Shown: positions 3,794-63,315, counted from the first letter of the stretch. The stretch: 64,000 nucleotides of DNA from an uncultured Acidobacteriota bacterium (GCA_963827655.1 CAWHCF010000040.1:10472-74471), one strand, 5' to 3'. Numbers and translations are program-made. The notes: a model not told the origin generated them from the sequence alone.

Positions 3794-3870
3794 TTGCGGA
3801 TTGCGGATTGCGGATTGCAGATTGAAAAGCAAGACAGGCGATTGCGGATTGCAGATTGAAAAGCCGACAG
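3792..3870. repeat. Heptamer tandem repeats (GATTGCG)n with a 25-bp internal direct repeat, between sdhA and sdhB
   Basis: GATTGCG x3, GATTGCA, GATTGAAAAGC; GATTGCGGATTGCAGATTGAAAAGC recurs at 3840. Confidence 0.9.
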
Positions 3871-3895
3871 CGATTCGTAATCCAAACGAGGCCTT

Positions 3896-5537: not shown

Positions 5538-5954
5538 CTAGCCTCGCAGGAAAAACCAGGCCACAGCGACGGAAGCCACGACCCAGGCAAGATAGTTCAG
5601 CGCCACGATAACAAAATCAGGCACCCGCTTGCCGCCGAGGCGCAGCACCATCGCCTTGGGAGCCAGGTTGAACCAGGTAATGGCGTGGAACAGAACAAAG
5701 AAAAACGCGACCACATGGAGAGTGAGGAATAACGGGCTTTCAAGCCGGGCCATGAAATCGGCGTAAGCATCGGGTCCCGAGACCAGGGCTCGAAGCTGCC
5801 ATAGATAGATGATGGCAAAAAAGGCGACGAAGACGCTGGTGATCTCCCGCAAGACAAACTTGGTATAGGACCAGTTCTCGAGCCACCACCACACCGAGAC
5901 GGCGCGGCGGTACCACTTGGGGTGATAGAGGGTGTACTGAACCGGCGCGCTCAT
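5538..5954 (-). CDS. frdC: Fumarate reductase anchor subunit C
   Basis: [12 protein letters not shown] and [11 protein letters not shown] motifs; start MSAPVQ overlaps the frdB stop. Confidence 0.9.
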
Positions 5955-17432: not shown

Positions 17433-17475
17433 GGTGCCGGATCCAGCGCTCTTGAGAATCTGCTGAACAGTCTAA

Positions 17476-17554
17476 GGTTCGTTCGGGGACTTCGCCCCGA
17501 ACGAAGGCCCCTGGTGAACGACCACATATTGGTTTGAACGTTTCACTAAGCGCC
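17476..17554. mobile_element. 79-bp REP/MITE-like element, copy 1
   Basis: TTCGTTCGGGGACTTCGCCCCGAACGAA hairpin; TAA on both sides; near-identical copy at 25293. Confidence 0.75.
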
Positions 17555-17616
17555 TAAGGAGAAGAGGCATCGGCCGTCAGTATCCTGATGAACTCCTCGC
17601 GAAGTGGTCTGCCCTC

Positions 17617-25244: not shown

Positions 25245-25292
25245 CCCGCAAAACAAATACCACCAAGACACGAAGACGCGAAGAAACACTAA

Positions 25293-25370
25293 GGTTCGTT
25301 CGGGGACTTCGCCCCGAACGAAGGCCCTTGTGAACGAAAACATGTTGGTTTGAACGTTTCACCAAGCACC
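25293..25370. mobile_element. 78-bp REP/MITE-like element, copy 2
   Basis: Same hairpin and TAA flanks as the 17476 copy. Confidence 0.75.
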
Positions 25371-25744
25371 TAAGAATCAGCCAAAACTCTATCAACTGCG
25401 TCGGCCACGTCTCCCAGCGCGAAGGGTCGCGACAAGACAGCTGCCCAGGCAAAATCCCGGACCAGCGGGTCATTCAGCTCCAGAACGCTCGCGAGCGCGA
25501 TCACCGGTATCTTTGAATCAGTCAGCGCTTCCAGAGCGGAAGGGGTGAGAACCTGATCGCGCAGCTCCAGGACGATGGCCCGGGGCTTACGGAGGTCAGA
25601 ACCCTGGACCGCGGCCATAGCCTTGTCGAGTTCCAGAAAACCGACGGCGTCGTACCCGCGTTCGATCAACTCCGCTCTCAAGCAGGCGCGCGGCCACTGC
25701 TCGCTATCAACGATCCATACGATGACTTCGTGTTTCGGGTGCAT
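25370..25744 (-). CDS. Atypical single-domain receiver (CheY-like) protein
   Basis: VWIVDSE, IVLEL, IPVIAL, RPF pattern; phospho-Asp is replaced by Glu. Confidence 0.55.
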   Translation of the reverse strand: MHPKHEVIVWIVDSEQWPRACLRAELIERGYDAVGFLELDKAMAAVQGSDLRKPRAIVLELRDQVLTPSALEALTDSKIPVIALASVLELNDPLVRDFAWAAVLSRPFALGDVADAVDRVLADS

Positions 25745-37024: not shown

Positions 37025-38243
37025 ATGCTCAAAGGCCGGATTTCTCGAATTCTGTTCTTTATACCGCTGTTCTTGCTGCTACGCTCGTTTCCCCTCTGGG
37101 CTCACGGCGACAAGGTGATTCCGCAAGTGTTCGACGGGGGCGGGGTTGGTCGCACCAAGTTCGATCTCACCAATTTGAGTCCCGAGTTTCCCATCACCAA
37201 GGTAAGTGTTCTGTTCTTCCGCCAGGATGGCAGCCCCTGGTCCGTAACCACCAATCAAGGTACCGGGACCAGCTTCAATCTGAACATCGGTCCGTTCCAG
37301 ACGATCCGAATCGAGACCACGGGCGCGAGCCCAAGCTTGACGGTCGGGTATGCGATCGTTCGAAACACGGAGCGCACCACACAATTTGCCGAGGACTTCG
37401 AAGTGGCTATCACGGTGTTTTTTGAAATTCTCAATGGGCCGAATGTGGTCGACACCGTCAGCGTTCCGGTTGGTCAGCCTACCGTTTCATTCGCATTTCC
37501 CGTGGAGATGGACAATGCCGTCAATCTGTTCACGGGGTTCGCCATTGTGAACCTCACCGACGCCGACAACAACGTCGCGCTCACGCTCTATGAGTCCACG
37601 ACCTCCGGAAGCAGCGATCCCTCCGCCCGATTCGGGAATGGTGAATCTCACGCTGAACTCGCGACAGCAAAGAGCGCAGTTTCTCAACGAGAGCAACCTC
37701 TTCCCGACCAGGACGAAATTCAAGGGCATGTTGCTTGGCTTTGCCTCCGGGCCGGTTGCCATTCTTGCGCTGCTTCAGACCGGCACGCCCTTTGGTGTTC
37801 AGTTCGCCACGCTGGTGCCTGCGTATCAGGATGCCCTGCGGCGGAACACGCACATGTACCTGCAGCAGGGCCTCCCGCTCGATGCGGATCTCCCGATATC
37901 GGACTATACGGGCAACACCGAGGACAGCGCACCATGGGATATCCTTTACGAGACCCTGAATCCCACGACGCGGCGGCTTGCCCCCCAGGGGAGCGCGATG
38001 GTTGCCCCGATCGGCTTGCGCAGTGACAACCAGTTCGACAACGAAGTCACTCTGGAGTTCCTGCAGGGGCTGACATACAGCTCGACGCCCATCGATATGA
38101 GCAACGGCTCTCCGAACCTGGCAAGCGGCTTTACCTTCGCCATTCAGACCGGACTGAAGCGCTTTGTCAAAGTCCGGGTTTCCGTGTTCGTTACACAGGT
38201 GAATGACCGGCACCTGGTCCTGGAGATGGAAGTGTACCGGTAG
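37025..38243 (+). CDS. Exported hypothetical protein (frameshift near 37620)
   Basis: Signal peptide; IPQVFDG and TGFAIVN motifs; continues in ORF 37590-38243. Confidence 0.6.
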
Positions 38244-38468
38244 GATTTACGATTGACGATTTACGATTGACGATTGAAATAGCGGAGTCCACAATCATCC
38301 GCTTCAATCGGCAATCGTCAATCGTAAATCGTCAATCCTAAGTCAGCCGGCCAGGTTTTGGAGATGGAGGTTTACCGGTAGCGGATTTTACCATTGACGA
38401 TTTTGGCGGGCGGTTATTGTCGACTCTGCAGTTCAATCGTCAATCGTCAATCGTCAATCGTCAATCGT
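38244..38468. repeat. Two inverted heptamer-repeat hairpins (GATTGAC/GATTTAC versus AATCGTC)
   Basis: GATTTAC GATTGAC GATTTAC GATTGAC ... AATCGGC AATCGTC AATCGTA AATCGTC; second set at 38384-38468. Confidence 0.85.
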
Positions 38469-38967
38469 CGTCGGCCAGGTCGCGAAGGATCGATGGCGTC
38501 AGAAGCCATACCATCGTGCCGCGGGGTTGGGGAATCAAAGTTTCAAGGTCTATCGCGCAGCCTCCCCCTTTCTTGAGCTCAACATAACTTTCCGCCGAGC
38601 CCCAGGCGATCTCGCCGGCTATTTCTCCCAGAGAAGGCTGGTGGCCTACAAGCATCAACTCGTCTTCGTCCTTGAAGGACTGAATCGCTTTGTAGACGTC
38701 AGGTCTCTTTCCTGAAGGTGAAAGCGCCTGAAGTTGCTTGAGGTTGGTTTTCGAACCGAGAACTTTGCCGACGATTTCGGCTGTCTGCCACGCTCTTGGC
38801 AAAGGGCTGCTCAATATTGTCCGCGGCGTGATCCCCAATTGGTTCAGACCCGCCGCAGCCTTCTTCATTTTTTTGATGCCGTCAGGAGTCAGGGGCCGGT
38901 CATTCTCCGCCACTCCGCTGGTTCCGTGAGGGACCGCGATGGCGTGGCGGACGATGTATAGTCGCAT
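38461..38967 (-). CDS. sixA: Phosphohistidine phosphatase SixA
   Basis: LYIVRHA, RPLT, SSPL.RA.QTA, LVGHQP. Confidence 0.9.
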   Translation of the reverse strand: MRLYIVRHAIAVPHGTSGVAENDRPLTPDGIKKMKKAAAGLNQLGITPRTILSSPLPRAWQTAEIVGKVLGSKTNLKQLQALSPSGKRPDVYKAIQSFKDEDELMLVGHQPSLGEIAGEIAWGSAESYVELKKGGGCAIDLETLIPQPRGTMVWLLTPSILRDLADDD

Positions 38968-43333: not shown

Positions 43334-45450
43334 GCTCCCAGCAGCCCCAGGCTCGCTTGTTCCTGAACCGGGAACTAAGCTGGCTGGAGTTCAACAGCCG
43401 CGTTCTTGAAGAATCCCGCAATTCGAGAAACCCGCTTCTGGAGCGACTCCGCTTCTATTGCATCTTTCATTCCAATCTCGATGAGTTCTTCATGGTGCGA
43501 GTGGCTGCTCTAAGCCGCCAGATAAAGGAAGAGGACCATGCCTCGGATCCTGCCGGGTTCACCCCATACGAGCAGCGGGAGCGAATTCTTTCTCGTGTGC
43601 GAGATCTGGAGCACATGAGTTATGCGCTTTACAATACGAAGCTCCGTCGCGCCCTGGCTAAGGAAAAGATAAGGATCCTTCAGGTCGAGGAGCTCAATCC
43701 GGCGCAGCAGAGATACCTGGATGACTACTTCGATCAGCAAGTCTATCCGGTTCTGACCCCGCTGGCCATCGAGCAAAATCAGCCCTTCCCGCCGTTGCTC
43801 AGTCTTTCGGTGAACCTGGCGGTAAGGCTGATCTCCTTGAGGACGACTGACGAAGCCCCGCGGCTTGCCGTGGTTCAGGTGCCGGGAGGGTTGCCGGGGC
43901 TGTGCCGGCTCCCGCACGGAGAAGAGCTCGAGCTGTGCTGGCTCGCCGACGTGATCCGCCGAAGGCTGTCCGGGCTTTTTCCGGGTTACCAGATAGTCGA
44001 AGCCGCAGGATTCAGGCTTACTCGCGATTCCGAGCTGGAATTGGACGATGAAGGCCGCTATGACTACGTGCGCAACCTGGAATACGAATTGAAGAAGCGC
44101 CGTACTGCGGATCCTACGCGCCTGGAATTCCAGGAGCAAATGACGCCGGAGCTCCGGCGGCTTCTCCAGGAAGGGCTGGAGGTCGATGATTCCGCGATGT
44201 TGCCCGTAAAGAGGCCGCTCGATCCCCGTCCTCTTCTTTCCCTGGCGGACATGCCTGGTTACGACAAGTTACACTATCCGCCTCAACCTCCGATGATGCC
44301 GGCGGTCTTCGAACAGGAGCGGAACCTCTTCGATATCATAAGCGATGGCGATATTCTGCTCCATCACCCCTACGATTCTTTTGATCCGGTGGTCGAGTTT
44401 ATTCAATCTGCGGCCGAAGACCCGGATGTTTTGGCCATCAAACAGACACTCTACCGCACGAGCGGAAAGGGATCGCGCCTCCTTCGGTCTTTGGTTGCTG
44501 CGGCGGAGAACGGAAAGCAGGTAACTGTTCTGGTAGAACTGACGGCGCGTTTCGACGAAGAGCGCAACATCGATTGGGCAAGGGACCTCGAGGAGGCGGG
44601 GGCTCACGTGATCTACGGCCTGGCCCGCCTGAAAGTACACGCCAAGGTCGCTCTGGTCGTGCGTCGTGAGCCCGCCGGAATTCGCCGTTACTTGCATCTG
44701 GCGACTGGAAACTACAACGAACGCACGGCTCGATTCTATACCGACTTCGGCCTGCTCACGGCATCCGATGCGTTCGGTGCTGATGCCTCGGGTTTTTTCA
44801 ATTCCCTCACGGGTTACTCCGAGCCTCCTATGTTTCAGAGACTGGTCGTGGCACCCCTCGGACTTCGTGAGCGAATCGTCTCGCTGATTCGGAGGGAGGC
44901 TGATCGCGCCCGGTCCGGCCAGATTTCGGGCATTCTTGCCAAAATGAACTCTCTGGTCGATCCGGTGATCATTCAGGAACTGTCAGCCGCGAGCACGGCT
45001 GGAGTTTCTATTCGGTTGAACGTTCGTGGCATATGTTGCCTTCGACCCGGGTTGCCCGGCGTGAGCGAGCACATCCGAGTTATCTCGATTGTAGATCGAT
45101 ACCTTGAGCATGGCCGCGCTTTTGTGTTTCGCAACGGAGGTAACGCCGAAGTGTATCTTTCCAGCGCGGACTGGATGCCGCGTAACCTCGACCGTCGCAT
45201 CGAGCTGATGTTCCCTGTCCTGGATGAATCCGCCAAGAGAAAGGTGATCGAGGCCCTGGAGGCGCAGTTTGCCGACAATCAGAAAGCTCGTTTGTTACTC
45301 CAGGATGGCAGCTACCAGCGGATCACTCCGGGTCGATCCGACCCGGTCCGGGTCCAGGAATATCTTTACCGGCAACTTCTGGAAGAACGGGAGCGAACTC
45401 GAGCCGTGACTCCGGTCCGTTTTGTTCCGATCGAAGGATCGAGGACTTAA
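43330..45450 (+). CDS. ppk1: Polyphosphate kinase 1
   Basis: NRELSWLEFN, LLHHPYDSF, ARFDEE, KVHAK, SADWMPRNLDRR. Confidence 0.96.
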   Translation: MSSQQPQARLFLNRELSWLEFNSRVLEESRNSRNPLLERLRFYCIFHSNLDEFFMVRVAALSRQIKEEDHASDPAGFTPYEQRERILSRVRDLEHMSYALYNTKLRRALAKEKIRILQVEELNPAQQRYLDDYFDQQVYPVLTPLAIEQNQPFPPLLSLSVNLAVRLISLRTTDEAPRLAVVQVPGGLPGLCRLPHGEELELCWLADVIRRRLSGLFPGYQIVEAAGFRLTRDSELELDDEGRYDYVRNLEYELKKRRTADPTRLEFQEQMTPELRRLLQEGLEVDDSAMLPVKRPLDPRPLLSLADMPGYDKLHYPPQPPMMPAVFEQERNLFDIISDGDILLHHPYDSFDPVVEFIQSAAEDPDVLAIKQTLYRTSGKGSRLLRSLVAAAENGKQVTVLVELTARFDEERNIDWARDLEEAGAHVIYGLARLKVHAKVALVVRREPAGIRRYLHLATGNYNERTARFYTDFGLLTASDAFGADASGFFNSLTGYSEPPMFQRLVVAPLGLRERIVSLIRREADRARSGQISGILAKMNSLVDPVIIQELSAASTAGVSIRLNVRGICCLRPGLPGVSEHIRVISIVDRYLEHGRAFVFRNGGNAEVYLSSADWMPRNLDRRIELMFPVLDESAKRKVIEALEAQFADNQKARLLLQDGSYQRITPGRSDPVRVQEYLYRQLLEERERTRAVTPVRFVPIEGSRT

Positions 45451-45489
45451 CGATTTACGATTGACGATTTACGATTGACGATTGAATCG
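45451..45489. repeat. Heptamer repeats after ppk1, same unit sequence as at 38244
   Basis: GATTTAC GATTGAC GATTTAC GATTGAC GATTGAA. Confidence 0.85.
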
Positions 45490-45540
45490 CATTTGGGATG
45501 GGTCCTGCTCGTTTCACCTTGACCGGGCCATCCAGGTGCG

Positions 45541-52765: not shown

Positions 52766-52841
52766 GGCGCTATCGTCTAGGGGACTAGGACGGGTGGTTC
52801 TCAGCCATCAAACCAGGGTTCGAATCCCTGTAGCGCTACCA
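52766..52841 (+). tRNA. tRNA-Glu(CTC)
   Basis: Cloverleaf with GGCGCTA/TAGCGCT acceptor, GGTGG-TTCTCAG-CCATC anticodon arm, GGTTCGAATCC, encoded CCA. Confidence 0.95.
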
Positions 52842-52898: not shown

Positions 52899-52923
52899 TA
52901 ACCGCTGACGCGCCTCCCGCGTT
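52899..52923 (+). promoter_or_regulatory. Candidate ECF-sigma promoter
   Basis: TAACC-N16-CGTT upstream of the ECF operon. Confidence 0.4.
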
Positions 52924-52960
52924 GTATCGGTAAATCTCGTACATGCGAGGAGAAGCGCAG

Positions 52961-53440
52961 ATGGGTCCAGAAATCATCATCGTGCCGGCGGCGTTCCTGC
53001 TGATGGGCTACGTCGTCTTCACAATCGTCGACGGCATCCTGCGGTGGCGCAGGCTCAGAGTATCGACCGAGTTTCAGGGGAAGCTCCTGGAACGGATCGG
53101 CTCCGCCCGGGAATTCGGCGAATTTCTCAACACCGAGGGGGGCGGCCGGTTCATCGACGTCATCGGGACGGAGAGAGGTGGCAGCGCGCACGCACGTATT
53201 CTCCGCGCCGTGCAGATGGGAATCGTCCTCGTCGTTCTCGGTGCGGCGCTGTTCCTGTTCGTCAGGTGGGTCACGCTGCCGTACCCCGTTCCGGAGAACC
53301 TGGGGTTTCTCGCGACTGTTTCGACAGCCATCGGGGTCGGACTGTTGCTGTCCTCCTTCGTCTCGTACCGTCTCTCGAGAAAGATGGGACTGATCGAAGA
53401 TCAGGCGCACCGTGCGCCTCACGTGACAACAGTGTCGTGA
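52961..53440 (+). CDS. Membrane protein with three TM helices (DUF6249-like)
   Basis: GAGGAG RBS; KLLERIGS..EF.EFL motif. Confidence 0.7.
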   Translation: MGPEIIIVPAAFLLMGYVVFTIVDGILRWRRLRVSTEFQGKLLERIGSAREFGEFLNTEGGGRFIDVIGTERGGSAHARILRAVQMGIVLVVLGAALFLFVRWVTLPYPVPENLGFLATVSTAIGVGLLLSSFVSYRLSRKMGLIEDQAHRAPHVTTVS

Positions 53441-53441
53441 C

Positions 53442-53942
53442 ATGCCTGAGTTCACGGAGCTTGCCTTCGGCGAGTTCTACCGCCGTCATGCGCGGGCACT
53501 GTGGTCGTACGTGTATCGGGTGACCGGCAACGCCGCCGATGCGGACGATATCGTTCAGGATGCGTTCTGCCGGGTCTTCTGCGCGGAAGTGTCCGATCTC
53601 AGCGATGAGGACTGCCGGCGATATCTCTTCCGCGTCGCCGGCAATCTGATCACGGATCGATGGCGGCACGCGCAGCGCGAGCTGTCCTGGCTCGCTCGCC
53701 TGCGCCCGCCTCCACCCGAGCCGCCGCCGGCCGGGCACGACGAGGAGGTGGCCCGGACGTTTGCGGCCTTGAAGCCACGCGAGCGCGCGTTGCTGTGGCT
53801 TGCGTACGTCGAACAGCAGGACCATCAGCAGATCGCCGACTCCCTCGGCCTGGCCCGCGGCAGCGTCAAGGTGCTGCTGTCGCGCGCACGAAACAGGCTC
53901 CGGGATCTTCTGAGTTCCGTGCGAATCGTCGCGAGGGCATGA
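53442..53942 (+). CDS. ECF-family RNA polymerase sigma factor
   Basis: ADDIVQDAF, YLFRVA.N, IADSLG..GSVKVLLSRAR. Confidence 0.9.
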   Translation: MPEFTELAFGEFYRRHARALWSYVYRVTGNAADADDIVQDAFCRVFCAEVSDLSDEDCRRYLFRVAGNLITDRWRHAQRELSWLARLRPPPPEPPPAGHDEEVARTFAALKPRERALLWLAYVEQQDHQQIADSLGLARGSVKVLLSRARNRLRDLLSSVRIVARA

Positions 53943-54232
53943 TGTTCGAGCTTTTCAGTGGGAACCTGACGCCTGAGGAAGAGGACGCCGTCGCTGCCTT
54001 CATGGAGCGCGTGGCCGTCCTGCCCGATGCACAGCGGGCGCCGCTTCCGGACCCGACCGTGCTCTGGTGGAGGGCGCAGCTCGTGCGGCGATGGAACAGC
54101 GAGCGGAAGGCGCAGGCGCCGCTCGATGTGATCGATCCGATTCAGATTGTCGCGGGCCTCATCGCCGCCGGACTGCTGCTGGTGTGGACACTGCCGTCGG
54201 TCGTGCGCGCATTTTCTTTCATCGGCCTGTGA
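53939..54232 (+). CDS. Small membrane protein, putative anti-sigma factor
   Basis: Overlaps the sigma stop codon; LPDP..LWWRAQL motif plus one TM helix. Confidence 0.6.
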   Translation: MMFELFSGNLTPEEEDAVAAFMERVAVLPDAQRAPLPDPTVLWWRAQLVRRWNSERKAQAPLDVIDPIQIVAGLIAAGLLLVWTLPSVVRAFSFIGL

Positions 54233-54519
54233 CCTCAGGGGACTCCGCATTAACGCGCTGTCGCCGTCAGAGCTTTATCGAAGATCCGTCGTGACCCTGA
54301 TGGAATCAGAGCCCGTAGTGTCCCACGACTCGGCCAACTACAAACACGGCACGTGTTGCATGATCTAGACTGCCTCCGTGCTCCACGTGGAAGCCTTTCA
54401 GCTGTTGCCCCCTCGTCCTTACCGGCTGGCTGAATCGCCGGGAGCGCTTGACGGTGGACACTCCAAGTGTTCACCACGCCGACCGCTTGGGACAGCGGCC
54501 AAGGCGTTCGCGTATAATC

Positions 54520-54789
54520 CGCCCGCGCTCCGCCAATCTCTCCTGCGGTAGAGGAAGCCGACTGGAGGTATTAATGGGGCATTAGGGCACTCCCTCGCGG
54601 TAGGATTCTTCCGCAAAATCTCACGATTTCACGGCTAGGTTCTTCGCGCTTCCAATGCACCTGGCGTATAATCCGCGGAGTCGGACTCATCCAGGACCGA
54701 CGAACATCGCGCAAAGTTAACATAAGGCCCGTTCTCAGAGCCTGAGTTGCCCCGACTCGAGCCGAAAATGACGCTTGTTTCTCTTATCC
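54520..54789 (+). mobile_element. IS91/ISCR-type right-end remnant 1 (transposase C-terminus, UTR and oriIS-like end)
   Basis: Encodes SARAPPISPAVEEADWRY-stop; ends GACGCTTGTTTCTCTTATCC; ~250 bp shared with 57866-58117. Confidence 0.7.
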
Positions 54790-54845
54790 ACTTACATCGT
54801 CAAGGTGAGCGGAAAAGGATGAGGGACGAGCGGTTGCAGAAGAAT

Positions 54846-54891
54846 TGGAGGCGCCGCCCGGATTTGAACCGGGGATGGAGGTTTTACAGAC
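54846..54891 (-). repeat. tRNA-Cys 3'-half (att-like), copy 1; anticodon reads GTA
   Basis: Minus strand TCTGTAAAACCTCCATCCCCGGTTCAAATCCGGGCGGCGCCTCCA; no 5' half. Confidence 0.8.
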
Positions 54892-55016
54892 TTCGTCGGG
54901 TTCTGCAAGTTGTTGAATGGTCTTGCTCCTGGTCTCTGGTACTCCTCGCGACGCTGCCCGCCGCGCTCATCGACCTCAGGCGAGGTGTCTGATACGCTGA
55001 CCGCGAGGATCATCAA

Positions 55017-55985
55017 ATGAAAAGTGCTCCGCTCGTGCTCGCGGGTCTCGGCGTTGTCATGGGCGTTGCTGTCGGGGCGCAGCAACCGGCCGCCCCGGCG
55101 AGGCCGCTCACCATGCCGGCCGTCAACTCGCAGATCGGCGGCGCCTATCCGATCGACGAGCTGGAACATACGCTCACCTATACGCTGGAGTCAGTCTCGA
55201 TCGCGAGCCGCTTCGCTTCCGCAAACTCCAACGTCGTCGCTACCGGAGGGAAGCGCCTGTTGGTCATCACCTCGAGCCTGACCAATATCCAGAAGTTCAC
55301 GTATCCCCTCAATGCCCAAGCGGTGATGTTCAACGTCTTCAACGAGTCTGGAGAACGATTCCTCAACTCCCTGCACAGCTTCATCCTGCCGGGCCTGACG
55401 TCCTTCCCGACGGATCTCAAGACGAAAGAGAAGCTGCGGTACGTCGCGGTGATGGAGATTCACGGCCAGGGACCAATCACGCGCCTCGCCGCCGTCAAGG
55501 GCGACCGCAAGACCCGCCGCGCGTGGTACGACGTCGAAAAAGACCTGACGATCGCGCCGTCGGTATTCGCGAGCGGTAACGGACTCGTCGATCGCGCCGA
55601 GACACGGATGGGGACGACGTTCGACCTCGGGGCGTTCGACATGACCGTGGAGTCGGCGGGTCCGGTAGCGAGCGCCGGCAGCTACCAGTCCTCGTCGTCA
55701 GGCGAGGTCTACGCCGTCACCGTCAAGGTCACCAACATGCTGAAAGCGCCGGAGAAGTTCGGCTGGCAGTACGGGAAGGCGACGCTGACCGACACGTCAG
55801 GCAAGGACCTGAACTGGACCAGCGACATCATCGATACGGCGACCGGCAAGTCCGTGGTCGGCGAACTGGTCGCCGGGCAGCCATACGTCGTCCAATACGC
55901 CTTCAACGCCGAGCGCGGCCGCGCGCTGAAGACCTTCACGCTGGCGATGAACGGCGGCCGGACGATCGTTGTCGATTTGAAGTGA
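55017..55985 (+). CDS. Exported hypothetical protein with two Ig-like (DUF4352-like) halves
   Basis: Signal peptide; strong GC3 bias; two beta-rich repeats. Confidence 0.7.
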   Translation: MKSAPLVLAGLGVVMGVAVGAQQPAAPARPLTMPAVNSQIGGAYPIDELEHTLTYTLESVSIASRFASANSNVVATGGKRLLVITSSLTNIQKFTYPLNAQAVMFNVFNESGERFLNSLHSFILPGLTSFPTDLKTKEKLRYVAVMEIHGQGPITRLAAVKGDRKTRRAWYDVEKDLTIAPSVFASGNGLVDRAETRMGTTFDLGAFDMTVESAGPVASAGSYQSSSSGEVYAVTVKVTNMLKAPEKFGWQYGKATLTDTSGKDLNWTSDIIDTATGKSVVGELVAGQPYVVQYAFNAERGRALKTFTLAMNGGRTIVVDLK

Positions 55986-56116
55986 TGTCGCCTGCTTGTT
56001 GCGGCCGCGGGCGTAGGGCGGCGCCGAGCGTTTGTTGGGCCCGTACACCAGAACGTACATCCGAAGGGCAGCCCGGTGTTGGCCCGGCTTTCGTTTTGCC
56101 GTTTCGTTAGAAAAAT

Positions 56117-56161
56117 TGGAGGCGCCGCCCGGATTTGAACCGGGGATGGAGGTTTTGCAGA
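56117..56161 (-). repeat. tRNA-Cys(GCA) 3'-half (att-like), copy 2
   Basis: Minus strand TCTGCAAAACCTCCATCCCCGGTTCAAATCCGGGCGGCGCCTCCA. Confidence 0.8.
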
Positions 56162-56414
56162 GCCGTCCCCGGTCCTTTCTCATCGATCGGTGACTCGCGC
56201 GATCGCGCTAGAAATCAAATCGCGTCAATCAGTTGCTTCGATCGACTATTCACCGCGATCGCGTGACGCGTTGCCTGAAATTGGGTGCCGCTGGTTTGCC
56301 GCGGGCACAGTTTGGGCACACCTCGGTAGCTCGCGGGCGACCGAAAAGCCATCCGACCGACGATGGCCTTCATCGATTGATATGGCTCAGTCGAAACGCT
56401 AGACTGCGTCTTCG

Positions 56415-56774
56415 GTGGTCATGCAAATCGAGGAGTGCTACCAAATCTTGGAGACTCCGGCGAAAGAGCACAAGGTTATCGTTGTAAGCAAAGGAGCACC
56501 GACCTATACGGTCGACATCGATGGCACAGCCTATATTAATTCGACCGGCAATGCCGGACTTGCAACCGCCGGCTCGGGCGACATTCTTGCTGAGATGGTC
56601 GTGGGGACATTGGTCCAGATGCGGGACCGAGCGATCGATGCCGCAACGATCGGGACGTACGTTCATGGTCTTGCCGGCGATCTGGCTGCCCAGGACCAAA
56701 CACAGATTGCCATGATCGCGACGGATGTGAACGGATATTTGCCACAGGCATATAAAGCACTAGGGTGTAGGTGA
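56415..56774 (+). pseudogene. nnrD: 3' fragment of NAD(P)H-hydrate dehydratase (NnrD/carbohydrate kinase)
   Basis: KGAPT..INSTGNAGLATAGSGDIL..YVHGLAGD; N-terminal part missing. Confidence 0.75.
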
Positions 56775-56775
56775 T

Positions 56776-57195
56776 ATGGCTAAGAAACCTGAACCCAAGA
56801 CGAGACCGACCGAGGTAAGCCCCGAGGATTTCCTGAACGAGATCAAGGACGAGCAGAAGCGGCAGGATTGTTTTGAAGTGTTGGAGATGATGAGATCGGC
56901 TTCAAAGATGAAACCAGTGATGTGGGGGCCCGCGATCGTTGGGTTCGGTTCTAAACCGATCAAGTATGCGAATGGCAGTGAGCTCGATTGGCCGATGATG
57001 GGGTTCTCGCCACGTAAAGCGAACCTGACGCTCTATCTCATGTCGGACTTCCCGGACTATGAGAAGCTTCTTGGAGAGTTAGGGCCACACACGGTTAGCA
57101 AGGCCTGCCTGTATATCAAGCGGTTGAGCGATATCGACAAGAAGGTGTTGAAGCAGTTGATCGCCGAATCATTCAAAGCTGCGAAAAATAGCTGA
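56776..57195 (+). CDS. DUF1801 domain protein
   Basis: MWGPAIVGFG, GFSPRKANLTLY, CLYIKRL. Confidence 0.85.
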   Translation: MAKKPEPKTRPTEVSPEDFLNEIKDEQKRQDCFEVLEMMRSASKMKPVMWGPAIVGFGSKPIKYANGSELDWPMMGFSPRKANLTLYLMSDFPDYEKLLGELGPHTVSKACLYIKRLSDIDKKVLKQLIAESFKAAKNS

Positions 57196-57203
57196 TACGT
57201 CTC

Positions 57204-57629
57204 ATGGCAAAGAAAGCTGAGATCAAGACAAAACAGAATGAGGGGAGTGTCGAAGACTTTATCAATTCTGTTGGCGATGAGCAGAAGATAAAAGATGCCT
57301 TTGAAGTGCTCGAGATGATGAAGAAAGCGACGAAGCTGGAGCCAAAGATGTGGGGAGCGTCTCTCATCGGTTTCGGGAGTAAGGTCTACAAATCGCCGGC
57401 GTCGGGCCGAGAGGTCGATTGGTTTCTCGTAGGGTTCTCGCCACGTAAGGCGAACTTTAGTTTGTATGTACTCAATGGCTTCGAGAAGCAAGGCGAGTTG
57501 TTGGGCAAGCTCGGAAAGTACACTACCGGTCAAGGCTGTCTCTACATCAAAAAGCTGGAGGACGTCGACAAGAAGATCCTCAAACAGATGATCGAAGCAT
57601 CGCTAAAGAATATCAAGCAACTACCTTAG
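57204..57629 (+). CDS. DUF1801 domain protein (tandem paralog)
   Basis: MWGASLIGFG, GFSPRKANFSLY, GCLYIKKL. Confidence 0.85.
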   Translation: MAKKAEIKTKQNEGSVEDFINSVGDEQKIKDAFEVLEMMKKATKLEPKMWGASLIGFGSKVYKSPASGREVDWFLVGFSPRKANFSLYVLNGFEKQGELLGKLGKYTTGQGCLYIKKLEDVDKKILKQMIEASLKNIKQLP

Positions 57630-57641
57630 TCGAGTATTCGA

Positions 57642-57866
57642 GATGGTAAGCTCCTGGGCAGCAGTTCTTAGAAAGGATCTCCTTGCCATTGCGATGTTCC
57701 TGCTTGTTACCGTCGCCATCGTTCTCTTTTCTCTTCCCGGCGAGCAGATCGCGCCAAGCATGATCAGCGCGCTCTTCTGGATCGCTCTCTTTTTGGCGCC
57801 ATGACGGGCCTCGCCCGCAGCTTTATTTCCGAAGAAGAACGGGGACGTCGTTCCTGCTCCGTATCC
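57642..57866 (+). pseudogene. ccmB: 5' fragment of heme exporter CcmB, truncated at IS91 remnant 2
   Basis: MVSSWAAVLRKDL..LFWIALF then GAMTGLARSFISEEERGT in a shifted frame. Confidence 0.6.
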
Positions 57867-58117
57867 GCGGTAGAGGAAGCCGACTGGAGGTATTAATGAG
57901 GCATTAGGCAGCAGGCACTCCCTCGCGTAGGCTTCTTCCGCAAATCTCACGATTTCACGGCTAGGTTTTTCACGCTGCCAATGCACCTGGCGTATAATCC
58001 GCAGAGTCGGACTCATCCAGGACCGAGGAACATCGCGCAAAGTTAACATAAAGCCCGTTTCTCCAGAACCTGAGTTGCCCCGACTCGAGCTGAAAATGAC
58101 GCTTGTTTATCTTATCC
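57866..58117 (+). mobile_element. IS91/ISCR-type right-end remnant 2
   Basis: PAVEEADWRY-stop plus UTR ending GACGCTTGTTTATCTTATCC. Confidence 0.7.
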
Positions 58118-58139
58118 ACTTCCTTCCGTTGTAGTTTAG

Positions 58140-58237
58140 CCTTATCAGGGAACGACCGAATGACACTCGTGTGGGTGCGGGTTGGAGATACCTGGAAGAT
58201 TACGCACGAACCCGGCTCCCTGTTGAAGGCACGTTAG
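58140..58237 (+). pseudogene. C-terminal fragment of an NTF2/SnoaL-like protein
   Basis: MTLVWVRVGDTWKITHE..-stop just after the oriIS-like end. Confidence 0.45.
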
Positions 58238-58498
58238 AGCAGAATGGCCTCCGCGCGAATCGCCGCCGTGGCGAAACCCTGCAAAATTTCATCCCAGCCT
58301 AAAGGTTTTGGTCTATGATCGGCCAATTGGATGCCGCACAACGGTCGGGGCCGGGCGCTCGAGTTGACATAATGTCTGCCGATCGGAAAGTGGGCCGACC
58401 CCGCAACCGGGGGGACGCGAGGAAAACGGCTCTTGTTCGGCCTCAGGCAGAGCGGTGAAACGCTTTAGATTAGTTGACCCAAGGGAAAGGGACACGAC

Positions 58499-58852
58499 AT
58501 GCGGGCACTGTGGAGCGGACTGGTTCTGGTTATGTTGACTGCGCTGGTAATGGCACAGACGTCGTGGTCCGATTGGAAAACGCCATCAGGCGCGGACAGC
58601 AATCTTGAATACAGGTGGCGACGGACCGCGGCGGTGTGTCCAGCCAACGGCTGTTTCAAAATCTTGCAGTTTCGAAACACCGGTCGCAACACATTAAGTT
58701 TTGATTACACCGTGTGGTCGAAGTCGATTGGCGACGGCAGCGACGACGTAAAGGACACAGGATCGGCCACAGTCCGTCCGGAAGCGACAATCGACAGGAC
58801 CGCCGGCAGCGGTGGTAACCTGGTTCGCGTTGATGCGGATATGCGTCGCTAA
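58499..58852 (+). CDS. Small exported hypothetical protein
   Basis: Signal peptide; Cys pair; beta-rich. Confidence 0.6.
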   Translation: MRALWSGLVLVMLTALVMAQTSWSDWKTPSGADSNLEYRWRRTAAVCPANGCFKILQFRNTGRNTLSFDYTVWSKSIGDGSDDVKDTGSATVRPEATIDRTAGSGGNLVRVDADMRR

Positions 58853-59001
58853 TAAGCGATGATCGGACACTCGTCGATGCGCTCGTTCAGGGAACGGAGA
58901 TGCCCCTCGATCGCCGCCATCCTATTCCGGTCCAGTATCCATGCGGGTCCAAGCGCATCCTTAGGGAATTGAGCAACTTGTCAAAACATGCCCGATAGGG
59001 A

Positions 59002-59045
59002 TTCCTGAACCGTGGGCGGGTGTTCGAGTCACCCCAGGCGCACCA
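59002..59045 (+). repeat. tRNA-Arg(CCT)-like 3'-half (att-like)
   Basis: TTCCTGA loop, perfect T-arm GGGTG-TTCGAGT-CACCC, CAGGCGC-A-CCA. Confidence 0.65.
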
Positions 59046-59060
59046 CCACCGCGCGATCGA

Positions 59061-59573
59061 GTGCGGCTCGAGCGACTCTGCCGTTACTGCGCTCGCCCCG
59101 CGGTGGCCAACGAGCGTCTGTCGGTCTTGCCGGATGGCCGGCTATTGTACCGCCTCAAGCGGCGCTGGCGGGACGGAACCAGCCACGTGATTTTCGAGTC
59201 CATCGAGCTTGTCGAGAAGCTCGCTTCCCTTGTTCCGCCCCCCCGGTTCAACCTCGTCAGGTATCATGGCGTTCTTGCCCCTTCCGCGCGGTGGCGACCG
59301 AGCGTCGTTCCTTCTCACACCGCTGCCGGGGATATCGTTTCTCACCCTGGCTGCGCTGCCAAGAAACTCGATCCTCGTCCCGAGGCGAAGAGTTCCCACA
59401 AGCGACGCGGTTGCCACCCTCGGAACTACTCATGGTCCGAATTGATGCGCCGAGTGTTCGCTGTGGACGTTTTGGAATGCCCTCGCTTCATTAATACCTC
59501 AATACCTCCAGTCGGCTTCCTCTACCGCGGGAGAGATTGGTGGAGCTGAAAATGACGCTTGTTTCTCTTATCC
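59061..59573 (+). mobile_element. Truncated IS91-family (Y2/HUH) transposase 3' part with inverted tail and oriIS-like end (remnant 3)
   Basis: LERLCRYCARPA, PPPRFNLVRYHGVLAP, WSELMRRVFAVDVLECPR; ends GACGCTTGTTTCTCTTATCC. Confidence 0.85.
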
Positions 59574-59816
59574 ACTCCCGCCTGCATCCTGATGAGGGCG
59601 CTGCTCACGCCTCAAACAGCTTCGGATAAAGTTTCCGATAAGTTGCAATATATAGGTTGCCTACGACACGCACCTCAAACCGGAGATGCCTTAGATACCG
59701 GAACCGCATGCGGGTCTGGGCACACGCCTCCCTTTATTGCAGCATTGCGGCGCGAGGGCTAGCCAATCTGAACTTGACTCGCGTAATCTCGTCGCCGTAA
59801 GCTAAGAATTCTTGGT

Positions 59817-60155
59817 ATGGGACGCAAGGCGCAAAAGAACGATTCGTTGCCCGGTTCACTGGACATGTTGATTCTGCGGACGCTGTCGCGGCGCGACCTC
59901 CATGGATACGGCATAGTCCAGTTCATTCAACAATCGTCCGACAACGAGCTCCTCGTCGAGGAGGGCTCGCTGTACCCCGCTCTCCAGCGGCTGGAGCTAA
60001 ACGGCTGGATCGAGGGTGTCTGGGGCGTGACGTCGAATAATCGGCGGGCGAGGATCTACAAGATCACGGCGGCTGGCCGCAAACAGCTGGCCGTTGAAAC
60101 CCGGAAGTACGCCAAACTCACGCTGGCGATCGCGCGCGTGATGGGAGCGGAGTGA
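59817..60155 (+). CDS. Acidobacterial PadR-family regulator
   Basis: GSLDMLIL, HGYGI, VEEGSLYPAL, NNRRARIY. Confidence 0.92.
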   Translation: MGRKAQKNDSLPGSLDMLILRTLSRRDLHGYGIVQFIQQSSDNELLVEEGSLYPALQRLELNGWIEGVWGVTSNNRRARIYKITAAGRKQLAVETRKYAKLTLAIARVMGAE

Positions 60156-62893
60156 CGGACGTGTTACGACGGCTGAGGTATTGGATAGAAAGCGCCAGGC
60201 GCAGCGAGGCGCTGCGTGAGGAAATGGAACTCCACCTTGCGGAAAAAGCCGCGGAACTGGAAGCAGACGGTATGACGGCGGAGCGCGCCCGGGCTGAAGC
60301 GCGCCGGCGATTTGGCAACGTCGGACTGAAGCACGAAGAGTCACGGGAGATTTGGATGACACGGTTTTTGTCGGAACTTGGCCAGGATGTCCGCTATGGC
60401 TGTCGCACCATGACCGCCAACAAGGCATTCAGCGCCCTGGCGGTCTTGTCGCTGGCGCTCGGCATCGGGGCCAATACTGCGATCTACAGCTTCATGGAGT
60501 CGATTCTGTTGCGCTCGCTGCCGGTGGCCGATCCCGAGTCGCTGGTGGTCTTGAATTGGCATAGCCGGCCGCCCCAGGACGGCAGCAAGGAATGGGTCCA
60601 CGTCGTGCACGGGGTACAAGGCATTCTCTGGCCGGGCGACAAAGGCGCCATGGTCAGCGGGATGTTCCCGTACGGCGCGTTCGAGACGCTTCGCGAGGAG
60701 AATCCCGTCTTTTCCACGCTCTTCGGATACTTCAACGGACTAAACCGTAACCTGGCCGTCCGCGGGCAGGCCACGAGCGCCAGCACGGAGTACGTCACCG
60801 GCGAGTATTTTCGCGGCCTGGCAGTGTCGCCGGCCGCGGGACGTCTGATCGACTCCGAAGACGACCGTCCAGGCGCAGCGCCGGTCGCCGTAATCAGTTT
60901 TGCTACAAGCCAGAATCGCTTTGGGGGACCGCCGAATGCGATTGGACAATCGATTCTCGTCGATAACGTGCCCTTCACGGTGATCGGCGTCGCGCCGCCG
61001 GAATTCTTCGGAGTCGACCCTGCGGCGGCGCCGGACCTCTACCTTCCGTTGCACACGAATCTGCTCGTGGACGGTGCCGGAGCGGCTCGTATGTATCGCG
61101 ACGGAAACTTCTACTGGATCGAAATGATGGGCCGTCTGCGTCCCGGCGTAAGCATGGCCCAGGCGCAGGCAGCGCTGGCTCCTCGTTTCCATCAATGGGT
61201 TGCCGCCACCGCGAAGACCGACGGTGAGCGCGCCAAACTGCCCGCGCTGATTCTGAATCCCGGCGCCGCCGGTCTGGGTAGCTTGCGCCGCCAGTATTCC
61301 AAGCCTCTGTACGTGCTCCTGACGATGGTGGGATTGATCCTGGCGATCGCGTGCGCGAACATCGCCAATCTGCTGCTGGCAAGGGCCGCCGCGCGACGCC
61401 GCGAAATGGCTGTCCGGCTCAGCCTGGGAGCGGGACGGTTCCGCGTCGTGCGGCAGTTGCTTACCGAGAGTGTGATGCTGGCGTCGCTCGGCGGAGCATT
61501 AGGGGTCTTGTTTGCGATCTGGGGCGTGCGATCGCTGACGTTTCTGCTCTCCAAGGGGCAGGAGAACTTTACGCTGCACGCGGAATTGAACTGGAACGTG
61601 CTGGGCGTGACGGCGGCGCTCTCCGTGGTTTGCGGCCTGTTATTTGGCCTCGCTCCAGCGATTCAGTCGACGCGTCCGGACGTCATGCCCGCGCTAAAGA
61701 ATGGCCGCGGGGGCGGACCGCGCCGCCGCGCGCAGCACGTTCTGGTGGTCGCCCAAATCGCGATCTCTTTTCTCATCCTGGTCGCCGCGGGTCTGTTTGT
61801 CCGGACACTCAACAAGCTGCACTCCGTCCAACTGGGATACGCCCGCGAGAACATCCTTCTGTTCTCGTTGAATGCGCGCCAGGCCGGGCATCGCGACCCG
61901 GAGATCGCCACTTTTTACGCGGACCTGCGCAAGCGCTTCGAATCGATCCCCGGAGTGAGCAGCGCGACGCTTTCGCAATCCTCGATCATCAGCGCCGGCC
62001 GCGCCGGGCAGGCAATCAGGGGGCCAATGAAGATCGGCGCTGTTACCATCGAAGGCGCACGCGTCCTGGCCGCCGGACCGCGTTTCCTCACGACGATGCA
62101 GATTCCGATCCTGGCCGGGCGTGAGATTGACGACCGCGACCAACCGGGCTCCACGCCGGTTGCAGTGATCAGCGAGCGGCTGGCGCGGACTTACTTCGGG
62201 AACGAGAATCCGGTGGGCCGGCGCATCACGTTCCTGGACGAGAAGCGCGATCTCGAAATCGTCGGCGTGTCGGCTAACCTGCGGTACGGTGGTCTGAAAA
62301 ATGAAGAGGAGAGTCCAATGACCGTGTTCGTAGCGGTCAGCCAGATTTCTCCGGACGGAATGACCTACGCGCTGCGCACTGCGGGTGATCCGCTGAGGTA
62401 TGTCAAGAGTGTGCATGAGATCGTGCGGGAGGCAGATTCACGCATACCCGTCACAAACGTGGTCACACAGGCTGCGGAAATCGATCGGACGATCAGCCGG
62501 GAAATCACGTTCGCGAAACTATGCACGGGTTTCGCGGTTCTCGCTCTCCTGATCGCGTGCGTGGGACTCTACGGGACGATGTCCTACAGCGTCGCGCGGC
62601 AGGTCGGCGAGATTGGAATCCGTATGGCTCTGGGCGCGCAACGCGGCGCCGTGGTATGGATGGTTCTGCGCCGCGTTCTACTACTGGCGGCGGTGGGACT
62701 CGCGATCAGCGTGCCTGCCGCGTTGAGCGCGTCCCAGCTTGTCAAATCGTTTCTGTTCGAGACCCAGCCCAATGATCCGGGAACCCTGGCGCTGGCCGGT
62801 GTCGTCCTCCTAAGCGCCGCGATTCTCGCTGGCTATGCGCCGGCAAGGCGAGCGTCCCGAATTGATCCGCTGGCGGCTCTGCGGCACGAGTAA
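60152..62893 (+). CDS. ADOP-family duplicated ABC permease (MacB/FtsX-like)
   Basis: EARRRFGN, LALGIGANTAI, IACANIANLLLAR, EIGIRMALGA, IDPLAALRHE. Confidence 0.92.
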   Translation: MTDVLRRLRYWIESARRSEALREEMELHLAEKAAELEADGMTAERARAEARRRFGNVGLKHEESREIWMTRFLSELGQDVRYGCRTMTANKAFSALAVLSLALGIGANTAIYSFMESILLRSLPVADPESLVVLNWHSRPPQDGSKEWVHVVHGVQGILWPGDKGAMVSGMFPYGAFETLREENPVFSTLFGYFNGLNRNLAVRGQATSASTEYVTGEYFRGLAVSPAAGRLIDSEDDRPGAAPVAVISFATSQNRFGGPPNAIGQSILVDNVPFTVIGVAPPEFFGVDPAAAPDLYLPLHTNLLVDGAGAARMYRDGNFYWIEMMGRLRPGVSMAQAQAALAPRFHQWVAATAKTDGERAKLPALILNPGAAGLGSLRRQYSKPLYVLLTMVGLILAIACANIANLLLARAAARRREMAVRLSLGAGRFRVVRQLLTESVMLASLGGALGVLFAIWGVRSLTFLLSKGQENFTLHAELNWNVLGVTAALSVVCGLLFGLAPAIQSTRPDVMPALKNGRGGGPRRRAQHVLVVAQIAISFLILVAAGLFVRTLNKLHSVQLGYARENILLFSLNARQAGHRDPEIATFYADLRKRFESIPGVSSATLSQSSIISAGRAGQAIRGPMKIGAVTIEGARVLAAGPRFLTTMQIPILAGREIDDRDQPGSTPVAVISERLARTYFGNENPVGRRITFLDEKRDLEIVGVSANLRYGGLKNEEESPMTVFVAVSQISPDGMTYALRTAGDPLRYVKSVHEIVREADSRIPVTNVVTQAAEIDRTISREITFAKLCTGFAVLALLIACVGLYGTMSYSVARQVGEIGIRMALGAQRGAVVWMVLRRVLLLAAVGLAISVPAALSASQLVKSFLFETQPNDPGTLALAGVVLLSAAILAGYAPARRASRIDPLAALRHE

Positions 62894-63051: not shown

Positions 63052-63315
63052 CTAGACAGGTTGACAAACCTCGCTTCGTCGGTCCGCACTGAAGATGTTG
63101 GCACCGCGGGGTGTATAGCCCACGACCAGCAACCGGGCCTTATTGGACATTCCGATCGCCAGGTATCGGTCTTCCGTTCCGGAATGCTCTTCGTCGAAGG
63201 TTTCGATGCGTCGCGAGTCAGCGAAGACCGTAACCGCTTCTTCGAACGATACGCCGTGCTTCCTCAGATTCTCCGCAGCTTTATCGTCGTCCCACTCGAA
63301 ACCATATTCACCCAT
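63052..63315 (-). pseudogene. brnT: BrnT-family toxin with aberrant C-terminus and no BrnA antitoxin
   Basis: FEWDDDKA..N..KHGVSFEEA..EDRY..IG; RIISAR motif absent. Confidence 0.7.

What the first reader, a model, noticed from the sequence alone, without database searches (positions are those of the whole stretch)
52900..59600. Array of passenger DNA plus IS91/ISCR right ends beside tRNA-Glu: candidate rolling-circle gene-capture island
Seen: three same-orientation copies of one element end (54520-54789, 57866-58117, ~59545-59573). All finish GACGCTTGTTT(C/A)TCTTATCC and are followed by ACT(T/C). Copies 1 and 2 keep only the last transposase codons (RAPPISPAVEEADWRY) plus ~220 bp containing TATAAT. 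Copy 3 keeps the IS91 C-terminal half. Each end sits to the right of unrelated cargo: the ECF module, the tRNA-half cassette plus nnrD'-DUF1801x2-ccmB', and a small secreted gene. Known: IS91/ISCR elements transpose by rolling circle from oriIS and carry adjacent DNA by reading through terIS. Inference: these are non-autonomous, Helitron-like capture units mobilised in trans that have piled up at a tRNA hotspot, with ACT(T/C) as a possible target site.
Basis: partly seen in the sequence, partly recalled or inferred. Interest (0 to 1): 0.75.

Follow-up and report, generated by a model that had tools for sequence, protein, structure and literature searches.

The report
Transposon end remnants in mosaic island
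Three broken right-hand ends of a rolling-circle-type insertion sequence lie in a patchwork of foreign DNA next to a tRNA gene; the ends are real and of a known kind, but nothing found shows that they carried the neighbouring genes in.

Summary
The three same-orientation ends are real and beyond chance. They are oriIS ends of an unnamed ISCR-type (IS91-related) element: they follow the transposase stop by 216-222 bp and line up with ISCR1/2 termini. Corrections: the terminus is ...TATCCAC, so ACT(T/C) is not a target tetranucleotide; copy 2 keeps 9 codons, not 16; copy 3 holds 146 of about 525 residues, an inverted tail, and only 33 bp of end.

Neighbours are foreign. One is a 1.4-kb chromosome piece of a Kapabacteria-like donor, cut inside nnr at its left and abutting copy 2. 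But the island also holds three tRNA 3' halves (integrase-type att remnants) and dif-like sites, any of which could have moved DNA.

No second locus, empty site or intact transposase was found: the GTDB scan gave 4 chance-level hits. Best reading: 5'-truncated ISCR remnants in an integration hotspot, as known for IS801. Capture in trans is possible, not shown.

The parts
52766..52841 (+). Intact tRNA-Glu(CTC), left edge of the island; no 3' duplicate in the window
52961..54232 (+). ECF module: membrane protein, ECF sigma factor (53442-53942), small anti-sigma-like gene (name inferred from position); GC 62-67%, GC3 0.78-0.81
54489..54518 (+). Sigma-70-like pattern GGGACA-18-TATAAT abutting copy 1; shares 13 bp (54510-54522) with the element's own internal TATAAT region; origin unexplained
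54519..54791 (+). ISCR right end, copy 1: last 16-18 transposase codons, stop at 54573-54575, 216-bp 3' region, oriIS terminus ...TATCCAC
54715..54742 (-). dif-like site inside copy 1: XerD-type arm 10/11, 6-bp centre, weak XerC-type arm 7/11
54846..54890 (-). tRNA-Cys 3' half A (one change in the anticodon region); att-like remnant
55017..55985 (+). 322-aa gene with weak DUF4352 match, inside a 1271-bp unit bounded by the two tRNA-Cys halves; no integrase; GC3 0.85
56117..56161 (-). tRNA-Cys 3' half B, with short direct repeats on both sides (56042-56059, 56303-56320) that look like integrase arm sites (label recalled)
56460..56774 (+). Last about 103 of about 510 codons of nnr (NAD(P)H-hydrate epimerase/dehydratase); 74-82% identical to nearest relatives, one named Ca. 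Kapabacteria; mildly decayed
56776..57629 (+). Two intact DUF1801 genes, GC 48-51%; native neighbours of nnr in the donor lineage (inferred from shared contig lengths)
57643..57863 (+). Broken membrane-protein-like reading frame cut by copy 2; ccmB-like by recalled motif only, no tool match
57864..58119 (+). ISCR right end, copy 2: last 9 codons, stop at 57895-57897, 222-bp 3' region with TTCACG-18-TATAAT and a dif-like site (58041-58069, - strand), oriIS terminus
58120..58237 (+). Probable 3' end of a SnoaL/NTF2-like gene whose 5' part was not found; weak assignment
   Evidence: E 0.078; score 0.92
58362..58390 (-). Independent dif-like site: XerD arm identical to Solibacter dif (11/11), 7-bp centre, XerC-type arm 7/11
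58499..58852 (+). 117-aa gene of unknown family with a hydrophobic N-terminus (secretion inferred by eye)
59049..59486 (+). ISCR-type transposase fragment, 146 codons, with RLERLCRY tyrosine motif, no HUH motif
59484..59547 (-). Inverted copy of the transposase tail and stop, with an 8-bp duplication; 3-4 bp microhomology at both joins
59543..59575 (+). ISCR right end, copy 3: last 33 bp only
59817..62893 (+).

Best explanation
This is an integration hotspot beside tRNA-Glu in a probably acidobacterial genome, built from several kinds of mobile DNA. Shown: three oriIS ends of three slightly different copies of one unnamed ISCR-type element; three tRNA 3' halves; foreign gene blocks. Inferred: tyrosine-integrase elements aimed at tRNA-Cys and tRNA-Arg brought in and stacked much of the DNA; ISCR copies entered this dispensable DNA by oriIS-first strand transfer and lost their left parts, either at once by early termination (as IS801 minis do) or later by microhomology deletions. 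Copy 3 was further scrambled by a double template switch. The ends now act at most as outward promoters and as 250-bp recombination repeats; copies 1 and 2 could still be read by a transposase in trans, but most neighbouring genes were not brought in that way.
For: Right ends identical to the base and in ISCR register; left ends at three different places. The unit between the tRNA-Cys halves has its own att-like boundaries and no ISCR sequence. Copy 3 starts 3 bp after a tRNA CCA end and has arm-like repeats 48 bp to its right, as if it sits in an att site with no cargo of its own. Deletion and inversion scars are common here: copy 3, the broken frame left of copy 2, decay of nnr' at 3 of 49 invariant columns against 1 of 74 in DUF1801. 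Precedent: IS801 makes 229-679-nt right-end minis, yet most IS801 fragments in genomes were judged products of rearrangement (PMC3189936, passages); a CR2-sul2 unit moves by an integrase and att sites (PMC9376610, passages).
Against: The Kapabacteria-like block is fused directly to copy 2 inside a reading frame, and the DNA right of copy 2 is not its continuation, so copy 2 is not a simple cargo-free insertion. Three of three remnants keep the oriIS end, all in one orientation, and none keeps the left end. All three left junctions show CCGC (chance 0.003-0.018 in simulation, motif chosen after the fact). No integrase was found among the ORFs scanned in 52.0-63.9 kb. One locus only, so no order of events is proven.
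Confidence: 0.55

Rival explanations
1. One reading: each end is a non-autonomous rolling-circle unit. A terIS-less oriIS end is nicked by a transposase in trans, copies DNA to its left, stops at a target-like word, and inserts; units pile up head to tail. Copy 2 plus the Kapabacteria-like block would be the clearest case.
For: Geometry fits: cargo on the terIS side, intact oriIS on copies 1 and 2, same orientation. Foreign 1.4-kb block cut inside nnr at its left and fused to copy 2. Shared CCGC at the three left junctions, TCCG also at the nnr' cut, and right flanks TTAC/TTCC/TCCC. Mini-IS91 with the last 82 bp moves in trans with 11-53% one-ended events (PMC13181058); IS801 carried adjacent gene fragments in vivo (PMC3189936).
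Against: No second locus: 4 of 4 GTDB pattern hits lack transposase and further homology, against 1.6-5.4 expected by chance; no match in plasmids or phages; the window's DUF1801 cluster is seen on 1 contig. No 5' half of the SnoaL-like gene left of the block in 52 ORFs scanned. Copy 3 has lost most of its end. The only named close transposase relatives are acidobacterial (3 of 120 listed), none from the donor lineage. Rolling-circle movement by an ISCR transposase was described as not experimentally shown (PMC9376610).
Confidence: 0.22
2. Xer-module model: the element's 3' region carries a dif-like site, and host XerCD recombination at these sites (and at the free site at 58362-58390) assembled or reshuffles the segments; oriIS rides along.
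For: The three best dif-like scores of the window all lie in the island, two inside the ends; the free site has the exact XerD arm of Solibacter dif. Two or more such arms arose in 1 of 200 resamples of the island. None of 20 fetched loci, among them the known ISCR ends, has the exact arm pattern.
Against: XerC arms are weak (6-7 of 11). All three sites point the same way, whereas pdif cassettes are flanked by inverted sites (10.1101/2022.12.17.520857, passages). Homology between copies 1 and 2 runs through both sides of the site, so no crossover scar is visible. Copy 3 has lost the site. The motif was noticed after the fact.
Confidence: 0.1
3. Assembly or amplification artefact: pieces of different genomes were joined through the repeated ends or tRNA halves, and the inversion in copy 3 is an amplification chimera.
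For: Blocks of different origin change at repeats; a core gene (hpnA, about 49065) has a one-base frameshift in a short run, so the sequence has errors; microhomology inversions are typical of whole-genome amplification (recalled).
Against: Copies 1 and 2 differ at 13 substitutions, too many for collapse; the left junctions and the nnr' cut are not at repeats; nnr' shows decay expected of a resident pseudogene; hpnA was the only split gene noticed among 40 core ORFs scanned; copy 3 needs two switches that return to the same strand.
Confidence: 0.1

Closest known systems
ISCR elements (ISCR1, ISCR2/ISVsa3; NCBIfam NF052416 'ISCR clade Ia')
   Same: Transposase fragment matches NF052416 at E 9e-35 and has the RLERLCRY motif of ISCR1/2; terminus 216-222 bp after the stop against 232-244 bp; 12-13 of 22 terminal bases shared in register; TATAAT pattern in the oriIS region like ISCR1 outward promoters (PMC6218425).
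   Different: About 45% identical to the nearest plasmid transposases, no DNA-level match; no intact gene or terIS here; a dif-like site inside the end; environmental host and no resistance genes.
IS801 miniature right-end derivatives (229, 360, 679 nt; PMC3189936)
   Same: Intact right end, left end inside the transposase gene, similar sizes (273, 256 bp and a scrambled longer piece).
   Different: IS801 minis start at a tetranucleotide like the target; here that is only suggestive (CCGC at left, T-Y-M-C at right). No parent element in view.
ISCR28 'sandwich' of a remnant oriIS and a second oriIS around a gene (as described second-hand in PMC12772301)
   Same: Successive oriIS ends in direct orientation with unrelated genes between them.
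   Different: Neither flanking copy here encodes a transposase; the enclosed DNA has its own att remnants.
tRNA-targeting integrative elements and integrase-less att cassettes; CR2-sul2 unit moved by the GIsul2 integrase (PMC9376610)
   Same: tRNA 3' halves in direct repeat around a cargo gene; ISCR sequence next to att sites.
   Different: No integrase and no intact tRNA-Cys or tRNA-Arg in the window; the halves do not match the flanking tRNA-Glu.
Helitrons
   Same: HUH rolling-circle family with one fixed end and capture of gene fragments (works-like comparison only).
   Different: Eukaryotic, Rep-helicase protein, different termini (recalled); the protein here is ISCR-type.

Membership tests
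IS91/ISCR | HUH-superfamily transposase (Y2_Tnp domain) | tested here: met
   Fragment hits PF04986 E 8e-19 and NF052416 E 9e-35, below whole-protein cut-off because partial; 30 of 30 relatives of 500 aa or more have an HxH motif.
IS91/ISCR | Intact transposase gene (autonomy) | tested here: not met
   Ten full-length relatives match the window only at 59016-59486. The rest of the genome was not available.
ISCR subgroup | R-x-x-x-Y catalytic motif as in ISCR1/2 (single-tyrosine rule recalled) | tested here: met
   Window RLERLCRY; ISCR1 and ISCR2 KLERLCRY.
IS91/ISCR | oriIS downstream of the transposase gene with a fixed terminus | tested here: met
   Terminus at +216/+222 against +232/+235/+244; same register as the published ISCR1 22-mer. 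Motif likeness alone is modest: one unrelated site ties the score.
IS91/ISCR | terIS left end | tested here: not met
   All three copies are cut inside the transposase gene.
IS91/ISCR | Target tetranucleotide next to oriIS | tested here: inconclusive
   ACT(T/C) is out of register. Flanks are TTAC, TTCC, TCCC (n = 3); ISCR1 flanks in 6 loci show no fixed word.
IS91/ISCR | Subterminal palindromes in oriIS | tested here: inconclusive
   Fold z-scores -0.05 to +1.4, but three known ISCR ends score no better (-0.2 to +1.9).
IS91/ISCR | Rolling-circle transposition | not testable with these tools
   Needs an assay.
Non-autonomous capture unit | Same end with the same cargo at a second site | tested here: inconclusive
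   0 of 4 GTDB hits real; none in plasmids or phages. One narrow pattern; metagenome and viral contigs unchecked.
Non-autonomous capture unit | Empty site: flanks rejoin when the unit is removed | tested here: inconclusive
   No 5' half of the SnoaL-like gene in 52 ORFs; no close relative to map it with.
IS801-type one-ended minis | Left end begins at a target-like tetranucleotide | tested here: inconclusive
   CCGC at all three left junctions (simulation 0.003-0.018, post hoc), not equal to the right-flank words.
Helitron | Rep-helicase protein | tested here: not met
   Close relatives are about 480-560 aa with PF14319 and PF04986 only.
tRNA-targeting integrative element | tRNA 3' fragment as att core | tested here: met
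   Two tRNA-Cys halves and one Arg-like half.
tRNA-targeting integrative element | Tyrosine integrase gene and matching intact tRNA | tested here: not met
   None among ORFs scanned; tRNA-Glu is the only tRNA gene in the window.
pdif/xrs module | XerC arm, 6-8 bp centre, XerD arm | tested here: inconclusive
   XerD arms 10-11 of 11, XerC arms 6-7 of 11.
pdif/xrs module | Inversely oriented sites flanking the cargo | tested here: not met
   All three sites on the - strand.

The most novel reading that the evidence does not exclude
Copies 1 and 2 are transposase-less rolling-circle capture units that cut random pieces out of chromosomes of other phyla (here a Kapabacteria-like nnr'-DUF1801-DUF1801 block), stop at a CCGC-type word, and stack head to tail at a tRNA hotspot. 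Each end also brings an outward promoter and a dif-like site, so host XerCD could excise or reshuffle the stacked units: a hybrid of rolling-circle capture and Xer cassette in environmental bacteria.
Probability: 0.15. Interest if true: 0.68.

Novelty: new member of a known kind. Interest (0 to 1): 0.33.

Why it matters
As remnants in a hotspot this is ordinary: right-end fragments, one-ended transposition and trans-mobilised minis are documented for IS91 and IS801. What is useful is an unnamed ISCR clade outside clinical Gammaproteobacteria, with its terminus fixed to the base, and a clean example of a cross-phylum chromosome piece fused to an oriIS end. If capture were shown it would bear on an open question: ISCR elements are blamed for moving resistance genes, yet their rolling-circle movement was described as not experimentally shown (PMC9376610). 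A dif-like site inside an ISCR end would link two mobilisation systems; I found no such report (listing only).

Tried and rejected
DNA searches of the end and of the transposase fragment in plasmids and phages: no match. ACT(T/C) as target: rejected by register. tRNA-Glu as the att site: no 3' duplicate. Empty-site test for copy 2: the profile search with the 38-aa fragment gave 6 weak hits, 1 SnoaL-like, none close; PDB and plasmid searches gave noise; Pfam found no 5' half. ccmB name: no support from Pfam, NCBIfam, PDB, Atlas or plasmids. Folding of the ends: uninformative, controls equally unstructured. XerC-arm 9-mer count: 13 in the window against 10.8 expected, not enriched. Rfam: nothing beyond tRNA-like matches. 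Region 58238-58498 against plasmids: chance hits. The cluster look-up for ten window proteins could not be made, so near-identical copies of the ECF, DUF4352-like and secreted genes elsewhere stay unchecked. The invariant-column test for the transposase fragment failed in the script and was not repeated.


Full report
Verdict. The three element ends are real ISCR-type oriIS ends in a mosaic island. The claim that they are gene-capture units is possible but unproven; a simpler reading, truncated remnants in an integration hotspot, is more likely (0.55 against 0.22).

The observation. GACGCTTGTTTNTCTTATCCAC occurs exactly three times in the window, all on the + strand (54770, 58098, 59554); 0 of 100 shuffles gave a match even with 3 mismatches. 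Copies 1 and 2 align with 236 matches, 13 substitutions and 5 gap events in 259 columns, so they are different isoforms, not a fresh duplication. Copy 1 begins at about 54519, copy 2 at about 57864 and keeps only AVEEADWRY. Copy 3 is scrambled: 146 transposase codons to VLECPR, then the tail and stop in reverse orientation with an 8-bp duplication, then 33 bp of terminus, with 3-4 bp microhomology at both joins.

The element. The fragment hits Pfam Y2_Tnp and NCBIfam ISCR clade Ia, profile positions 329-461 of 509. It is 41-77% identical to the 120 listed relatives, 3 of which carry an organism name, all Acidobacteria, and about 45% identical to plasmid transposases. Its RLERLCRY motif equals that of ISCR1 and ISCR2; 30 of 30 full-length relatives have the HUH motif, but that half is absent from the window. 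I fixed the terminus with known elements: six ISCR1 loci share TATAC+CC, three ISCR2 loci TATAC+GT, a third type TATAC+GC (3 of 13 loci had no end motif and were left out). This agrees with the published 232-bp ISCR1 oriIS region (PMC6218425, passages) and its 22-bp end (PMC13023784, passages). In that register the window's element ends TATCC+AC, 216 and 222 bp after the stop, and the flanks read TTAC, TTCC, TCCC. ACT(T/C) is therefore not a target word. The terminal motif alone is only modestly like ISCR ends (12-13 of 22; one unrelated site ties the top score); position and the sharp divergence point carry the assignment.

The neighbours. Thirteen core genes have GC 0.57-0.61 and GC3 0.63-0.75; the ECF module has GC3 0.78-0.81, the DUF4352-like gene 0.85, the DUF1801 genes GC 0.48-0.51. 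The nnr fragment is the last about 103 of about 510 codons, 74-82% identical to its nearest relatives, one named Ca. Kapabacteria. Six of the top 11 nnr hits share their contig length with a DUF1801 hit (2171, 2772, 14559, 14619, 22541, 27225; compared by eye), so nnr-DUF1801 is very likely the donor's own gene order: this is a piece cut from a chromosome. nnr' breaks 3 of 49 invariant columns including a Gly to Glu (relatives 0-4), DUF1801 1 of 74: mild decay of the remnant, an intact cargo gene. The host is inferred to be acidobacterial from the PadR and ADOP families and the transposase names; core genes were not placed taxonomically.

The two tRNA-Cys 3' halves bound a 1271-bp unit with arm-like repeats and no ISCR sequence. 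A third tRNA 3' half, Arg-like, ends 3 bp before the transposase fragment. tRNA-Glu has no duplicate and no integrase was seen in the ORFs scanned. The ends also contain a dif-like site, and a free one lies at 58362-58390 with the exact XerD arm of Solibacter dif (PMC3025954, passages and two supplement rows). These are the three best scores in the window; two or more such arms appeared in 1 of 200 resamples. XerC arms are weak, all sites point one way, and the motif was noticed after the fact. The accessory region continues to at least 63.3 kb (PadR-ADOP, BrnT).

Tests of capture. For: copy 2 is fused into a reading frame of the foreign block, and its right flank looks like the 3' end of an unrelated SnoaL-like gene (weak), so the flanks were not contiguous. 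All three left junctions show CCGC (0.003-0.018 by simulation, post hoc). Three of three remnants keep oriIS. Against or empty: the GTDB scan gave 4 hits, none with transposase or further homology, with 1.6-5.4 expected by chance; plasmids and phages gave nothing; the window's DUF1801 cluster is on 1 contig; no 5' SnoaL half was found in 52 ORFs. Non-contiguous flanks also follow from a deletion after insertion or from recombination between two copies. Copy 3, between a tRNA half and arm-like repeats, reads best as a cargo-free insertion into an att site (inference).

Mechanism. Shown: anatomy, register, foreign origin of blocks. Inferred: integrase elements stacked DNA at tRNA-Cys and tRNA-Arg sites; ISCR copies inserted oriIS-first and lost their left parts by early termination or deletion; later deletions and one template-switch inversion eroded the island. 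From the literature: IS801 yields 229-679-nt right-end minis in over 26% of events and can carry adjacent gene pieces, yet most genomic fragments were judged rearrangements (PMC3189936, passages); a mini-IS91 with the last 82 bp moves in trans (PMC13181058, passages); IS91-bounded circles with cargo occur in Sphingobium (PMC5737581, passages); ISCR28 remnant-oriIS sandwiches are cited in PMC12772301 (passages; the primary paper not seen); CR2-sul2 moves by an integrase, and rolling-circle movement of CR elements lacked experimental proof (PMC9376610, passages). PMC13393415, PMC12542671 and 10.1101/2022.12.17.520857 were read as passages.

Novelty. A new member of a known kind. Searches listed no paper on arrays of orphan oriIS ends in Acidobacteria or on a dif-like site inside an ISCR end; these were listings of an open-access library only, and ISfinder was not available. 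It works like IS801/ISCR remnants; membership of the ISCR group is met for protein and oriIS, not for autonomy or terIS; membership of Helitrons is not met.

Limits. One locus, one narrow genome scan, no reads. A core gene has a one-base frameshift, so some small indels in the island may be sequence errors, and an artefact cannot be fully excluded (0.1). Interest 0.33; the most novel reading has probability 0.15 and would deserve 0.68.

Noticed in passing
window 54715-54742, 58041-58069, 58362-58390 (- strand): dif-like (XerCD) sites, two inside the ISCR 3' region and one free; XerD arms near perfect, XerC arms weak, all in one orientation.
   Followed up: partly
window 58999-59045: Arg-like tRNA 3' half ending in CCA, 3 bp before the transposase fragment; probable att remnant.
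   Followed up: partly
window 54846-56161: 1271-bp integrase-less unit with one DUF4352-like gene between two tRNA-Cys 3' halves and arm-like repeats; candidate att cassette mobilised in trans.
   Followed up: partly
window 54510-54522: 13-bp copy of the element's internal TATAAT region right at the left junction of copy 1, forming a GGGACA-18-TATAAT pattern; unexplained.
   Followed up: partly
window 54519, 57864, 59048 and 56456: CCGC at the three left junctions; TCCG at two of them and at the nnr' cut.
   Followed up: partly
window 59621-59643: Direct repeat GGATAAA/CGATAAG 48 bp right of copy 3; arm-like, and also holds an exact XerC-type 9-mer.
   Followed up: no
window about 49065 (- strand): hpnA (hopanoid-associated epimerase) is split by a one-base frameshift in a short C run; probable sequence error.
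   Followed up: partly
window 20800-24570: Long tandem-repeat coding region with a period of about 270-280 bp at 65-70% identity, in several ORF pieces on the - strand; no NCBIfam match.
   Followed up: no
window 38213-38480 and 45442-45492; 3792-3860 and 14495-14590; 17472-17558 and 25289-25374: Short intergenic repeats in several copies and both orientations (REP-like), and an 87-bp repeat at 92%.
   Followed up: no
window 2057-4594 (+) and 5538-8444 (-): Succinate dehydrogenase and fumarate reductase gene sets facing each other.
   Followed up: no
window 63052-63315 (-): BrnT-type toxin-antitoxin toxin gene; suggests the accessory region runs to the window end.
   Followed up: no
L004:9811-10020: One GTDB pattern hit lies 112 bp after a tRNA-Glu in an Omnitrophota genome but has no transposase or further homology; treated as chance.
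   Followed up: yes
proteins P0002 and P0003: Two of the three closest transposase relatives also lose homology right after VLECP, the point where copy 3 inverts; may be chance, frameshift or a fragile site.
   Followed up: no
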